Part shown: positions 22,318-25,329 of the stretch, piece after piece
Layout of the letters: every line of letters starts with the position of its first letter
Position numbering within the stretch: the stretch's first letter is position 1
Source: Nanobdellota archaeon
GTDB taxonomy: Archaea > Aenigmatarchaeota > Aenigmatarchaeia > Aenigmatarchaeales > Aenigmatarchaeaceae
Reading direction: 5' to 3'
Assembly: GCA_018901655.1 (NCBI GenBank)
Contig: JAHIEG010000001.1
Coordinates: 1 to 63,638 of the forward strand
DNA length: 63,638 nucleotides
Position numbers and translations under genes: made by a program
Notes under the pieces: model-generated
Databases searched by the model: none
What the model saw: the letters and a program-made list of their open reading frames with translations, nothing else
Told to the model about the DNA's origin: nothing

Positions 22318-23069
22318 TGTTACAGATAACCCGCAAAATTAATTCCGGTTGATCCCGCCGGAGATCACTGTTATCAGGTTTCGATTTAGCCATGCGAGGT
22401 GAGAGGGTTTAGACCCTCGCCGAACTGCTCAGTAACACGTAGTTAACTTACTCTTAGGTGGGGCATAAACTCGAGAAATTGAGGCTAATACCCCATAACT
22501 GTTTATAGCTGGAATGCTTTAACAGTAAAAGTTCCGACGCCTAAGAATAGGACTGCGGCGTATCAGGCTGTTGTGAGTGTAAAATACTCACAAACCTATA
22601 ACGCGTAGAGGCCATGAGAGTGGGAGCCTCGAGATGCCTTCTGAGACATGAAGGCAGGTCCTACGGGACGCAGCAGGCGCGAAAACTTTCCAATTCATTA
22701 ACGTGTGAGAAGGGAAGCCTGAGTGCTTATGCATTGCATAAGCTTTTCTTTAGCTTAAATCGCTAAAGGAATAAGTGGTGGGTAAGACAGGTGCCAGCCG
22801 CCGCGGTAATACCTGCGCCACGAATGGTGATCACGATTATTGGGTCTAGAGCGTCCGTAGCCGGTTTAGCAAGTTCCTGGTGAAATCTAACAGTAAACTG
22901 TTAGGCATGCTGGGAATACTATTAAACTTGAGATCGGGAGAGGTCGGAGGTAGTCCATGGGTAGGGGTTAAATCCTTTAATCCATGGAGGACCACCGGTG
23001 GCGAAGGCGTCCGACTGGAACGAGTCTGACGGTGAGGGACGAAAGCGTGGGGAGCAAAGCGGATTAGAT

Positions 23070-23815
23070 ATAAAAATGAGGAAACATTAAAAGCACAGAA
23101 ACCTTAATGTGACTATGTTAGAATTCCGGGTAAAACAGTTTTTGAAGAAAAATCAAGATATTAAAAAAATTGATAAACTGTTTACTTGTCGAGCATCACC
23201 ATATCAAATTAAGATTCCTATAAATATTTCAACAGATCTTTGTAGATTATTAGGAATAATACATGGTGATGGAAATCTTTCATCAAAGAGAATACATATT
23301 ACAGACAAATGTAAAGAATATCATACCAAGGAATTAAAACCTTTGTTTGAGAAATTATTTGGAATAAAGTTAAATCTCTATCATGATGTAAATAGGAATT
23401 CATACTATAGTCATATCAAAAGTAGTATCTTATATAGATATTTTATAGATGTTTTGGAATTACCAAAAGGTGCAGTTAGACAAAATTTGATTTTGCCAAG
23501 TTTTATGCAAAAATTAGAAAATAAATTTATTGCATCTTATATTGGAGGAGTATATGATGCTGAATCAAATATAAGCAAGAGGCAAGCTCAAATTAGTTTT
23601 TCAACAACTACAAAGCAAATATTTGATTTGGTTAAAAATTTTTTAATCATAAATAATATAAAATATAGTATCTATATAAGATCTCGAAGAATTAATAAAG
23701 AATATGAAATTTACATTTATGGAAAAGAAAATATTAGGAATTTTTTAAGATATATTAAAATATCACACCCAGAAAAAATTAAGCTTTTGAAAAGGTTTCT
23801 TCATTTTTACTAGAT
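23070..23815 (+). other. 16S intron 1 (746 nt, BHB), after about E. coli position 793
   Basis: Central helix ttag/ctag, bulges ata/ata, 15-bp terminal stem taaaaatgaggaaac/gtttcttcattttta; splicing restores GGATTAGATACCC. Confidence 0.92.
23109..23813 (+). CDS. Intron-encoded double-motif LAGLIDADG homing endonuclease
   Basis: RLLGIIHGDGNL and YIGGVYDAESNI motifs. Confidence 0.9.
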   Translation: MTMLEFRVKQFLKKNQDIKKIDKLFTCRASPYQIKIPINISTDLCRLLGIIHGDGNLSSKRIHITDKCKEYHTKELKPLFEKLFGIKLNLYHDVNRNSYYSHIKSSILYRYFIDVLELPKGAVRQNLILPSFMQKLENKFIASYIGGVYDAESNISKRQAQISFSTTTKQIFDLVKNFLIINNIKYSIYIRSRRINKEYEIYIYGKENIRNFLRYIKISHPEKIKLLKRFLHFY

Positions 23816-24004
23816 ACCCGTGTAGTCCACGCTGTAAACGATGTCCGCTTGATGTCACAAATCTTACGTGGATTTGTGGTGTCGGAGCGTAGGTGTTAAG
23901 CGGACCACCTGGGGACTACGACCGCAAGGTTGAAACTTAAGGGAATTGGCGGGGGAACACACAAGAGGTGGAGACTGCGGTTCAATTGGAGTCGACGCCG
24001 AGAA

Positions 24005-24605
24005 AAGAAAGCAACTATTATAAATATCAAACTTGGTAAATAATACCGGGATTGATATGGGTGTTTATCAAAAGTGTTTAAAAAACAAAGAACTTGCAGC
24101 AAATGTTCTTTTATCTTTGATTGAATTTGAATTTAGTTTGGTAAGTGACGATACGCCAACTTTGCTTCAATCACATGTCAATAAAGAACAATTAATTGCT
24201 GTATTCAGAATCTGTAAATCTCATAAATGGACAAAATTTAAGAAATTGAAACTTAAAGGCGAAAATTTTTATTTTCGTTTGACTATTGATGGATTAAAAG
24301 AAATATATGAGATAGCTGGTCCATTTGTTAGTAAAAAAAGAAATATGTGGACTAAATTAATTACAGAAAGGGCAGGAAAGAAAGGAGGATATATGAAAGA
24401 AATGCCTTCGACTGAAAAAAGAATCATCGATCTACTGCAAACGAATCATGACTGGTGGACAGTAGAAGGTGTATGTTTAAACTTAAGATTAACACCAAGT
24501 ACAATAAGAAAATCATTTAGAAAAATAGATAATAGTTTTATAGAAAGGAAAAAAATCGGAAGATCGGTTTTGTGGAAATTAAAATAATAGGTGTTTTCTC
24601 TCGAA
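24005..24605 (+). other. 16S intron 2 (601 nt, BHB), after about E. coli position 978
   Basis: Central helix cgag/ctcg, bulges aaa/aat, stem agaaagca/tgttttct; splicing restores GACGCCGAGAATCTCACC. Confidence 0.92.
24033..24587 (+). CDS. Intron-encoded protein: divergent LAGLIDADG-like domain plus C-terminal winged HTH
   Basis: LLSLIEFEFSL in the helix-1 position; C-terminal IIDLL...WTVEGVCLNLRLTPSTIRKSFRKI...IERKKIGRSVLWKL is wHTH-like. Confidence 0.6.
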   Translation: MVNNTGIDMGVYQKCLKNKELAANVLLSLIEFEFSLVSDDTPTLLQSHVNKEQLIAVFRICKSHKWTKFKKLKLKGENFYFRLTIDGLKEIYEIAGPFVSKKRNMWTKLITERAGKKGGYMKEMPSTEKRIIDLLQTNHDWWTVEGVCLNLRLTPSTIRKSFRKIDNSFIERKKIGRSVLWKLK

Positions 24606-25135
24606 TCTCACCAGGGTTGACAGTAGGATGAAGGTCAAGCTAATGGTCTTACCAGACAAGCTGAGAGGTGTTGCATGGCCATCGTCAGCTCGTACCTTGA
24701 GGCGTGCCGTTAAGTCGGTTAACGAGCGAGACCCACGCTATCATTTGCTACCATATTTTATCTTGGAGTAATCCAAAATGTAAATTATGAGCACTATGTT
24801 AGGACCGCCACTGATAAAGTGGAGGAAGGAGTGGGCAACGATAGGTCCGTATGGCCCGGATACCCTGGGCTACACGCGGTCTACAATGGTTAGGACAATG
24901 CGATGCAACTCCGAAAGGAGAAGCTAATCGCCTAAACCTAATCTTAGTCCGGATTGAGGATTGTAATTCATTCTCATGAAGCTGAAATCTCTAGTAAGCG
25001 AAAGTTAATATCTTTCGCTGAATATGTCCCTGTTCTTTGCACACACTGCCTGTCAAACCATGCGAATGGATTTTTGGTGAGGCTTTGCTTTAACAAAGTC
25101 GAGCCAGAGGTCTGTGAGTGGGGTTAAGTCATAAC

Positions 25136-25253
25136 AAAATACTCAGTAGAATTTTTCGATTATTCCTTAGTGAATGAAGAAAAGGCAGCAAGCTTAATGC
25201 TTGTACGAGGTGAAATGAAAGGAAGTAATTTTTCTTTGCTGGTATTTTATGAA
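25136..25253 (+). other. 16S intron 3 (118 nt, ORF-less, BHB), after about E. coli position 1501
   Basis: Central helix cata/tatg, bulges aca/aaa, stem aaatac/gtattt; splicing restores AAGTCATAACAAGGTAGCC. Confidence 0.9.
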
Positions 25254-25329
25254 AAGGTAGCCGTACTGGAAGGTGCGGCTGGATCACCTCCTATATTTTA
25301 TAATATAGATTATCCGGTGCTAGTTAATT

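What the first reader, a model, noticed from the sequence alone, without database searches (positions are those of the whole stretch)
24033..24587. 16S intron ORF with unusual architecture: degenerate LAGLIDADG-like domain fused to a winged HTH
Seen: the 184-aa ORF has only a LAGLIDADG-like helix (LLSLIEFEFSL, glycines lost) and a clear C-terminal wHTH. Established: archaeal rRNA-intron endonucleases are usually plain single- or double-motif LAGLIDADG proteins. Inference: this could be a new homing endonuclease subtype with an added DNA-binding module, or a repurposed maturase/regulator.
Basis: partly seen in the sequence, partly recalled or inferred. Interest (0 to 1): 0.58.

Follow-up and report, generated by a model that had tools for sequence, protein, structure and literature searches.

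The report
Winged-helix LAGLIDADG nuclease in 16S intron
An intron in the 16S rRNA gene of a tiny DPANN archaeon encodes a real, selectively maintained protein with a very divergent LAGLIDADG nuclease fold and an added winged-helix DNA-binding domain. It is most likely a selfish homing endonuclease of an undescribed subfamily, not a decayed gene.

Summary
Window 24005-24605 is a 601-nt bulge-helix-bulge-type intron at 16S position 978/979. It is almost filled by one ORF, most likely 24057-24587 (ATG, 176 aa) rather than the 184-aa TTG frame.

[quoted passage not shown] It matches I-CreI at Z 9.4 (91 residues, 2.7 A). Residues 112-176 are an ArsR-type winged helix (Z 10). Pfam does not detect the N-domain.
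- **Motif.** LLSLIEFEF lines up with LAGLIDADG. Both glycines are lost, but the catalytic-position acid E25 is invariant.
- **Family.** The 16 homologous loci I examined all lie in 16S introns of the same DPANN phylum, at two sites (978 and about 1319). All 17 ORFs, counting the window's, are intact, with dN/dS about 0.1-0.2.
- **Distribution.** It is patchy: 12 of 371 genomes. A decay series exists: full ORF, a 155-nt remnant, a 52-nt ORF-less mini-intron and empty sites.

This is a homing-endonuclease life cycle, not a pseudogene and probably not a domesticated regulator. Longer two-domain paralogues sit in an operon with a DRG-type GTPase and look like host genes, much as WhiA does.

The scan noted a similar protein before, in an Asgard 16S intron (e1-5639440). 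Cleavage, dimerisation and the role of the winged helix are untested.

The parts
24005..24605 (+). 16S rRNA intron 2 (601 nt), inserted at E. coli position 978/979
   Evidence: The Rfam alignment shows a 603-nt insert here. I set the boundaries from the BHB-type motif and from the spliced sequence expected from intronless relatives. The MFE fold of the whole intron closes it with the same helices.
23999..24013 (+). 5' half of the splice motif: central helix strand CGAG (23999-24002), 3-nt bulge AAA (24003-24005) and inner helix strand AGAAAGCA (24006-24013)
   Evidence: The central helix co-varies across loci: CGAG/CTCG, CAGG/CCTG, CGGG/CCCG, CCGG/TCGG and CCAG/CTGG.
24592..24606 (+). 3' half of the splice motif: inner helix strand TGTTTTCT (24592-24599), central helix strand CTCG (24600-24603) and bulge AAT (24604-24606)
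   Evidence: In the MFE fold the 3' bulge is part of a 10-nt loop closed by an exon-exon helix, 23991-23996 with 24616-24621. The motif is therefore BHB-like rather than strictly canonical.
24057..24587 (+). ORF of 176 aa (stop codon included): LAGLIDADG-fold domain plus winged helix. The maximal frame from TTG 24033 gives 184 aa.
24078..24389 (+). N-terminal LAGLIDADG-fold domain (residues 8-111). The motif helix LLSLIEFEF is residues 18-26 (24108-24134), and the invariant acid E25 is at 24129-24131.
   Evidence: AlphaFold secondary structure is a-b-b-a-b-b-a-a. I-CreI 1af5 gives Z 9.4, rmsd 2.7 A, 91 aligned, model 9-110 against chain 4-113. I-CreI 1t9i_A gives Z 9.2 with 93 aligned. E25 is invariant in alignment A3.
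24390..24584 (+). C-terminal ArsR/MarR-type winged helix-turn-helix (residues 112-176)
   Evidence: The PDB profile search finds HlyU/ArsR at E 0.005. VIA gives Z 10.0 to 3r0a and Z 9-10 to ArsR, MarR and Zalpha chains. Distant family members hit Pfam HTH_5 at 1.8e-10. hhalign to the winged helix of the genome's canonical LAGLIDADG_3 protein gives 94.6% probability.
24019..24052 (+). Conserved leader: TATA-like box (TATTATAAATATCA, 24019-24032), then a hairpin or palindrome CTTGGTA-AATAA-TACCGGG (24034-24052) ending 4 nt before the ATG
   Evidence: Alignment A5 of 10 site-978 introns has invariant TCA, GTA and AC columns. In the stem 85.7% of cells pair against 75.5% in shuffles (0 of 500 shuffles reach it), and 4 of 7 pairs change on both sides. 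Its function is not tested.

Best explanation
The ORF encodes a functional, selfish homing endonuclease of a very divergent single-motif LAGLIDADG subfamily that carries a C-terminal ArsR-type winged helix.

Shown here:
- The protein has the LAGLIDADG fold followed by a winged helix.
- It keeps the acidic residue at the foot of the motif helix (E25, equivalent to I-CreI D20).
- It is under purifying selection.
- It lives only in bulge-helix-bulge introns at two 16S sites in one DPANN phylum.
- It shows the gain, decay and loss pattern of a homing element.

Inferred:
- Two subunits pair through the motif helices, as in I-CreI, to build two active sites.
- The dimer cuts the intronless 16S gene near position 978, and repair copies the intron in.
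- The beta1-beta2 hairpin is shorter than I-CreI's as I recall that structure. The two winged helices are proposed to supply the missing DNA contacts by reaching flanking DNA.
- They may also repress the ORF's own promoter at the palindrome in front of the start codon.

Splicing itself is done by the host tRNA-splicing endonuclease at the BHB-type motif and needs nothing from this protein.
For: Fold:
- The AlphaFold model has pLDDT 95.5 and pTM 0.86.
- The N-domain matches I-CreI at Z 9.4 (91 aa, 2.7 A), I-CvuI at Z 9.4 and PI-PfuI at Z 8.7.
- Foldseek finds I-CreI with probability 0.99.
- ESM Atlas structural neighbours include LAGLIDADG_3 and WhiA clusters.

Active site:
- E25 is invariant across 11 diverse members.
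- Distant members carry near-canonical motifs: TLEGEGD and AIIDEGAIG.
- A conserved K/R lies about 5 residues after the conserved GPF, topologically where I-CreI K98 sits. Q38 at the end of beta2 matches the place of Q47. Both equivalences are inferred from the aligned ranges and my recollection of the I-CreI sequence.

Dimer plausibility:
- A two-domain paralogue folds (pLDDT 89.5) as an I-DmoI-like pseudo-dimer. I-DmoI gives Z 13.1 with 181 of 188 residues at 3.1 A, and I-Tsp061I gives Z 13.1.

Selection:
- All 17 ORFs are intact, and dN/dS is 0.09-0.23 where dS is not saturated.

Mobility:
- The same family sits at 16S 978 (11 loci) and at about 1319 (6 loci).
- Only 12 of 371 genomes of the phylum carry a close full-length copy, spread over 5 taxonomic families.
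- Most 16S genes, including 9-10 of 12 in the window's own taxonomic family, are uninterrupted at 978.
- One genus holds a full ORF (G125), a 155-nt deletion remnant (G131 and G127) and an empty site (G129). G003 has a 52-nt ORF-less mini-intron at the same site.
Against: - No Pfam or NCBIfam LAGLIDADG model hits the protein at E <= 1.
- hhalign against two canonical LAGLIDADG proteins aligns no part of the N-domain.
- Both motif glycines, which let the two helices pack tightly in known enzymes, are replaced by Phe (LIEFEF). Dimer geometry and the spacing of the two active sites may therefore differ or fail.
- No dimer model could be made, and cleavage is untested.
- The spliced target shows no more palindromic symmetry than shuffled sequence.
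- WhiA shows that a LAGLIDADG fold plus HTH can be a pure DNA-binding regulator.
- Related long forms look like host genes.
Confidence: 0.62

Rival explanations
1. The protein is a nuclease-dead, WhiA-like DNA-binding protein. The LAGLIDADG domain is only a dimerisation or scaffold module, and the winged helix binds an operator. That operator could be the palindrome in front of its own start codon or a host promoter. The ORF would then persist as a regulator or addiction-type factor rather than as a homing enzyme.
For: - The glycines of the motif are lost, and no LAGLIDADG HMM detects the domain.
- WhiA is among the structural neighbours.
- Long paralogues sit in a conserved operon with a DRG-type GTPase in three genomes of two taxonomic families.
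- A conserved palindrome, GTA-N5-TAC, lies between a TATA-like box and the ATG.
Against: - WhiA lost the acidic and basic active-site residues (PMC3384342). Here the acid is invariant and a basic residue is conserved.
- A host regulator would be inherited vertically. This ORF is in 12 of 371 genomes, always inside rRNA introns, at two different sites, and it decays by deletion in close relatives.
Confidence: 0.22
2. The protein is a maturase or RNA-binding helper. It would bind the intron or pre-rRNA, for example through the winged helix (Zalpha-like domains bind nucleic-acid duplexes), to aid splicing or ribosome assembly around helix 31.
For: - Some LAGLIDADG proteins are maturases; the bI3 maturase appears among the fold hits of the long form.
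- Zalpha domains are among the best winged-helix matches.
- A conserved hairpin lies in the intron leader.
Against: - The intron ends form a BHB-type motif with a covarying central helix. That motif is the substrate of the host splicing endonuclease (PMC4496867).
- ORF-less mini-introns and deletion remnants persist at the same site in relatives, so removal does not need the protein.
- Zalpha matches are no better than ArsR or MarR matches; Z values are tied within 1.
Confidence: 0.08
3. The ORF is a decaying remnant or a chance open frame with no current function.
For: The motif is degenerate and no family hits were found.
Against: - There are 17 intact ORFs of constant length at 41-79% amino-acid identity.
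- dN/dS is 0.09-0.23.
- The AlphaFold model is confident, with pLDDT 95.5.
- True remnants exist in G131, G127 and G003 and look quite different.
Confidence: 0.03

Closest known systems
Homodimeric single-motif LAGLIDADG homing endonucleases (I-CreI, I-CvuI; archaeal intron-encoded I-Vdi141I, PMC2602781)
   Same: [quoted passage not shown]
- Encoded inside an rRNA intron, with a gain, decay and loss cycle.
- I-CreI and I-CvuI are the best structural matches of the N-domain, at Z 9.4.
   Different: - The motif is LL(S/P)LIEFEF, with both glycines replaced by Phe.
- The beta1-beta2 hairpin is shorter: about 13 residues by DSSP against about 27 in I-CreI as I recall that structure.
- There is an added C-terminal winged helix.
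- It is invisible to the Pfam LAGLIDADG_1, _2 and _3 models.
- I-Vdi141I itself did not appear in the lists I saw, so no direct comparison was made.
WhiA / DUF199 (degenerate double LAGLIDADG domain plus C-terminal HTH; Kaiser et al. 2009, reviewed in PMC3384342)
   Same: [quoted passage not shown]
- WhiA clusters are structural neighbours. WhiA 8dy7_I matches the long paralogue at Z 12.0.
   Different: - WhiA is bacterial, monomeric with two domains, vertically inherited, and has lost the catalytic acids.
- This ORF is archaeal, single-domain and intron-borne, keeps the acid, and is patchily distributed.
- The HTH types also differ: a sigma-70 region 4-like HTH in WhiA, and an ArsR-type winged helix here.
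I-TevI-type homing endonucleases with a separate HTH DNA-binding module that also autorepress (PMC3384342 cites Edgell et al. 2004)
   Same: A nuclease domain is combined with a separate HTH module. Dual use of the HTH for target binding and for repression of its own promoter is possible, because a conserved palindrome lies at the ORF's promoter-like leader.
   Different: I-TevI is a GIY-YIG enzyme of a phage group I intron. Autorepression here is only a hypothesis.
Canonical DPANN LAGLIDADG_3 proteins with a C-terminal winged helix (example in this genome: contig C5, L009 1480-2688, 402 aa)
   Same: The C-terminal winged helix is of the same kind (hhalign 94.6%), in the same organism. ESM Atlas shows archaeal clusters carrying LAGLIDADG_3 plus HTH_5.
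   Different: Those proteins have two recognisable LAGLIDADG motifs (GDGHIS and FDDEGTV) and are free-standing. The intron ORF has one unrecognisable motif and is half the size.
Archaeal 16S intron locus 978 (Jay and Inskeep 2015, PMC4496867)
   Same: The insertion site is the same in E. coli numbering, and the splice motif is of the BHB type.
   Different: In that survey, locus 978 (Caldiarchaeum) held only short hairpin introns with no ORF. Here the locus carries an endonuclease-type ORF. The second site, about 1319, is not among that paper's 13 loci.

Membership tests
LAGLIDADG homing endonuclease superfamily | [quoted passage not shown] | tested here: met
   AlphaFold secondary structure. 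I-CreI Z 9.4 with 91 aa at 2.7 A, I-CvuI Z 9.4, PI-PfuI Z 8.7. Foldseek probability 0.99.
LAGLIDADG homing endonuclease superfamily | Conserved acidic residue (D/E) at the C-terminal end of the motif helix, which binds the metal | tested here: met
   E25 is invariant in alignment A3. Offsetting the aligned ranges (model 8-111 against I-CreI 3-114) places it at I-CreI D20.
LAGLIDADG homing endonuclease superfamily | Sequence motif LAGLIDADG with small residues (Gly) that allow tight helix-helix packing | tested here: not met
   The motif is LL(S/P)LIEFEF, with Phe at both Gly positions. No Pfam or NCBIfam LAGLIDADG hit at E <= 1. hhalign to canonical members aligns no part of the N-domain.
LAGLIDADG homing endonuclease superfamily | Two domains or subunits paired through the motif helices | tested here: inconclusive
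   No multimer prediction was available. A two-domain paralogue models as an I-DmoI-like pseudo-dimer (Z 13.1, 181 aa, 3.1 A). That shows the family's bulky motifs are compatible with the pairing, but it does not show that this protein dimerises.
LAGLIDADG homing endonuclease superfamily | Site-specific double-strand cleavage of the intronless allele | not testable with these tools
   This needs a cleavage assay.
Mobile (homing) intron element | Sporadic distribution at a fixed target site, with full, degenerate and empty alleles among relatives | tested here: met
   12 of 371 genomes carry it. Most 16S genes are uninterrupted at 978. One genus holds a full ORF, a remnant and an empty site, and G003 holds a mini-intron.
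Archaeal BHB intron | Two 3-nt bulges separated by a 4-bp helix at the exon-intron junctions | tested here: met
   A 4-bp central helix with covariation and 3-nt bulges AAA and AAT. The outer helix next to the 3' bulge is loose, so the form is relaxed. Splicing itself was not observed.
WhiA/DUF199 | Two degenerate LAGLIDADG domains lacking catalytic acids, plus a C-terminal HTH_WhiA, vertically inherited in bacteria | tested here: not met
   This protein has a single domain and conserves the acid. No Pfam LAGLIDADG_WhiA or HTH_WhiA hit. It is intron-borne and patchy.
ArsR/SmtB-type winged helix (Pfam HTH_5) | Three-helix bundle plus a beta-hairpin wing; HMM match | tested here: met
   The fold matches at Z 9-10. 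The family profile hits HlyU/ArsR chains at E 0.005. Distant members pass the HTH_5 cut-off, with P0048 at 41 bits. The window protein alone is below the cut-off.

The most novel reading that the evidence does not exclude
The family may capture an archaeal counterpart of the WhiA story at both ends. On one side are mobile intron-borne single-domain nucleases. Their winged helix would extend target recognition and also autorepress the ORF at the GTA-N5-TAC palindrome. On the other side are vertically inherited two-domain paralogues in an operon with a ribosome-associated DRG-type GTPase, which would be domesticated descendants with a host function. The Phe-for-Gly motif would also define a new way of pairing LAGLIDADG helices.
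Probability: 0.2. Interest if true: 0.72.

Novelty: new variant of a known kind. Interest (0 to 1): 0.52.

Why it matters
- It adds a LAGLIDADG subfamily that current family models miss. ORFs of this kind in DPANN rRNA introns are therefore likely to go unannotated or be called hypothetical.
- It supplies an endonuclease-type ORF for 16S locus 978. One survey of archaeal 16S introns had found only ORF-less hairpin introns there. That makes the origin of such mini-introns testable, as decay products of homing elements.
- The Phe-substituted motif and the tethered winged helix would interest meganuclease engineers, as a compact nuclease core with a modular specificity domain.
- rRNA introns of this size also affect 16S primer surveys of DPANN archaea.

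Tried and rejected
- **Family models.** Pfam and NCBIfam scans of the ORF gave nothing beyond weak HTH hits.
- **Profile comparison.** hhalign of the family against the intron-1 LAGLIDADG_3 ORF found no alignment. Against the genome's canonical LAGLIDADG_3-wHTH protein, only the winged helix aligned.
- **ESM Atlas.** The feature search for the N-domain gave only unnamed clusters below 0.9. Its structure search was useful.
- **Group I intron.** Rfam found no group I model in the window. The intron has only about 50 nt and 18 nt outside the ORF, so I rejected this reading.
- **Target palindromy.** The spliced 978 site and the 1319 site were no better than shuffles (P 0.63 and 0.38). This does not exclude a homodimer, but it gives no support.
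- **Winged-helix half-site in the exons.** I looked for a copy of the leader half-site (yAGTA) in the flanking exons. Only the window has CAGTA downstream and it is not conserved, so I dropped it.
- **Distant members.** The near-canonical P0035, P0048 and P0031 are not in rRNA genes on their short contigs. The intron association therefore holds only for the two close subfamilies.
- **Literature.** No paper in the library combined LAGLIDADG, 'winged helix-turn-helix' and homing endonuclease. The CPR rRNA-insertion survey lists NUMOD fusions but no wHTH fusions.
- **Dimer model.** I could not make one, because no multimer tool was available.

Full report
**Setting.** Rfam places an archaeal 16S rRNA gene at window 22342-25159 (1067 bits). 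The gene is about 1.3 kb too long. Partial alignments and BLAST against relatives show three inserts:
- about 23071-23862, holding a 234-aa ORF with a Pfam LAGLIDADG_3 hit (3e-11);
- the 603-nt insert that holds the target ORF;
- about 25138-25253, without an ORF.

The exon resumes at 25254, so the gene really ends near 25300. The genome is a 0.66-Mb, 84%-complete DPANN-type assembly. The closest named homologue record is annotated Candidatus Micrarchaeota.

**The intron.** I read the sequence against ten homologous loci. The junctions form a bulge-helix-bulge-type motif:
- Exon bases 23999-24002 (CGAG) pair with the last intron bases 24600-24603 (CTCG).
- A 3-nt bulge AAA follows on the 5' strand and AAT on the 3' strand.
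- An inner helix AGAAAGCA/TGTTTTCT closes the intron.

Cutting after the second bulge base on each side gives GACGCCGAGAA+TCTCACC. This matches the uninterrupted sequence of relatives, so the intron is 24005-24605 and the junction is E. coli 978/979. The central helix co-varies between loci: CGAG/CTCG, CAGG/CCTG, CGGG/CCCG, CCGG/TCGG and CCAG/CTGG.

ViennaRNA folds of a mini-substrate and of the whole intron recover these helices. The 3' bulge, however, sits in a 10-nt loop closed by an exon-exon helix (23991-23996 with 24616-24621). The motif is therefore of the relaxed kind. No group I model matches.

**The ORF.** The frame 24033-24587 is open from a TTG. All homologues start 2-4 residues before a conserved VY, and the database gene call is the 176-aa product from ATG 24057. 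Five close homologues (48-68% identity, E 1e-43 to 1e-72) and 44 profile hits exist. None has a name or a Pfam domain except weak HTH hits.

**Fold.** With a 31-sequence alignment, AlphaFold gives pLDDT 95.5 and pTM 0.86.
- Residues 8-111 form a-b-b-a-b-b-a-a.
- VIA-align matches this part to I-CreI (1af5, Z 9.4, rmsd 2.7 A, 91 aligned; 1t9i_A, Z 9.2, 93 aligned, model 8-111 against chain 3-114). It also matches I-CvuI (Z 9.4) and the endonuclease domain of PI-PfuI (Z 8.7).
- Foldseek lists I-CreI at probability 0.99, although at a weak E-value of 0.016 because the model has two domains.
- Residues 112-176 are a winged helix, with Z about 10 to archaeal and bacterial ArsR, MarR and Zalpha-type chains.
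- The family profile finds HlyU/ArsR chains at E 0.005, and distant members pass Pfam HTH_5 (1.8e-10).

**Is the nuclease site kept?** The offset of the aligned ranges puts LLSLIEFEF (residues 18-26) on I-CreI's LAGFVDGDG. E23 then falls on D18 and E25 on D20. Both glycines are Phe.
- E25 is one of only three invariant columns across 11 diverse members.
- The more distant members carry nearly canonical motifs: TLEGEGD and AIIDEGAIG.
- A K/R about five residues after the conserved GPF, and Q38 at the end of beta2, sit where I-CreI K98 and Q47 sit. This last equivalence rests on my recollection of the I-CreI sequence and on aligned ranges, not on a residue-level superposition.
- WhiA, the known nuclease-dead LAGLIDADG+HTH protein, has lost exactly these residues (PMC3384342).

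**Can such a motif pair?** I could not model a dimer. A 345-aa paralogue (L024 1027-2061) with two such degenerate motifs (IALIEEM and SFDLEF) plus one winged helix folds at pLDDT 89.5. Both of its domains superpose jointly on monomeric archaeal enzymes:
- I-DmoI, Z 13.1, 181 of 188 residues, 3.1 A;
- I-Tsp061I, Z 13.1;
- PI-PfuI, Z 14.1;
- WhiA, Z 12.0.

Bulky residues after the acid are thus compatible with the canonical two-helix interface, at least in prediction.

**Where the family lives.** All 16 homologous loci I examined lie inside 16S genes.
- Counting the window, eleven loci are at site 978.
- Six loci, a subfamily with LLPLIEFEFAFxGAQKP, are at a second site: UCUGCAA|CUCG, about E. 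coli 1319/1320 by my numbering.
- The window is uninterrupted at that second site.

In several loci the ORF reads through the 3' splice site into the exon. All 17 ORFs are intact. Nei-Gojobori dN/dS is 0.09-0.23 wherever dS is not saturated, with window against L004 at 0.10.

**Distribution.** A profile search of 371 genomes of the phylum finds close full-length copies in only 12, spread over five taxonomic families. A search with an intronless 16S stretch finds that region in 195 genomes. The great majority align straight across position 978, including 9-10 of 12 in the window's own taxonomic family.

In one genus I found a full ORF (G125), a 155-nt intron in two genomes, and an empty site (G129). 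The 155-nt intron (G131 and G127) keeps the first 45 or so codons and then an internal deletion. G003, of the window's own taxonomic family, has a 52-nt ORF-less mini-intron with its own 4-bp helix and 3-nt bulges at the same site. This is the classic invasion, degeneration and loss cycle of homing endonuclease genes. It also shows that removal of the intron does not need the protein.

**What is known.** The survey of archaeal 16S introns by Jay and Inskeep (PMC4496867) lists locus 978 with short hairpin introns only and no ORF. It does not list 1319. Papers on archaeal group I introns and on CPR rRNA insertions detect endonuclease ORFs through the Pfam LAGLIDADG models, which would miss this family. 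No paper in the library combines LAGLIDADG, winged helix-turn-helix and homing endonuclease.

The architecture as such is not unique, though:
- This genome encodes a canonical double-motif LAGLIDADG_3 protein with the same kind of winged helix.
- ESM Atlas holds archaeal clusters with LAGLIDADG_3 plus HTH_5.
I did not test whether the two are related.

**Verdict.** The ORF is real, folded, selected and mobile in pattern. It is best read as a homing endonuclease of a divergent LAGLIDADG subfamily with a tethered winged helix (confidence about 0.6 for nuclease activity; about 0.9 for the fold and architecture). The main rival is a nuclease-dead WhiA-like binder (about 0.2). That reading fits the long chromosomal paralogues better: they sit in an operon with a DRG-type GTPase (MMR_HSR1+TGS) in three genomes of two taxonomic families.

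The role of the winged helix is inferred, not shown. It may provide extra target contacts, or autorepression at the conserved palindrome before the ATG, or both.

Noticed in passing
window 24019-24056; alignment A5 of 10 loci: Site-978 introns share a leader made of a TATA-like box (TTTAAATATCA type), then a hairpin or palindrome yyyrGTA-N5-TACyrrr that ends 1-5 nt before the ATG, with compensatory changes. Site-1319 introns have GTA-N4-6-TAC overlapping the ATG. It could be an mRNA hairpin or an operator for the winged helix.
   Followed up: partly
L024 1027-2061 (+), L025 1495-2511 (-), L026 1465-2526 (-): Paralogues of 339-354 aa have two degenerate LAGLIDADG domains plus an ArsR-type winged helix. 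They are not in rRNA genes. They lie directly upstream of, and overlap or abut, a DRG-type GTPase gene (MMR_HSR1+TGS) in three genomes of two taxonomic families. This looks like a vertically inherited, WhiA-like host gene of DPANN archaea.
   Followed up: partly
L009 1480-2688 (-) = own genome contig C5: A 402-aa canonical double-motif LAGLIDADG_3 protein (GDGHIS, FDDEGTV) carries a C-terminal winged helix homologous to that of the intron ORF. Its gene overlaps the start of an archaeosine tRNA-guanine transglycosylase-like gene (my reading of the sequence).
   Followed up: partly
window 23071-23862 and 25138-25253: The same 16S gene has two more introns. One follows GGAUUAGAUA and holds a 234-aa LAGLIDADG_3 ORF (23109-23813). 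The other is an ORF-less insert of about 116 nt near E. coli 1503. Rfam's 3' end of the gene (25159) is therefore too early; the exon resumes at 25254.
   Followed up: partly
L003, L013, L015, L016, L018: In five site-978 loci the ORF runs through the 3' splice site and ends in the downstream exon (C-terminal ..SLETLPGKTAG). The full product can therefore only be translated from unspliced RNA or from a separate transcript, not from the excised intron.
   Followed up: no
L032 (G003), L033 (G131), L034 (G127): Site 978 shows decay products: a 52-nt ORF-less mini-intron with its own 4-bp helix and 3-nt bulges, and a 155-nt intron that keeps about 45 codons of the ORF before an internal deletion. 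This may explain the hairpin-only introns reported at locus 978 in Caldiarchaeum.
   Followed up: yes
query positions 42-58 of L017:940-1150: Many 16S genes of the phylum break at a further site about 60 nt upstream of 978. That is roughly E. coli 908-919, a known archaeal intron locus.
   Followed up: no
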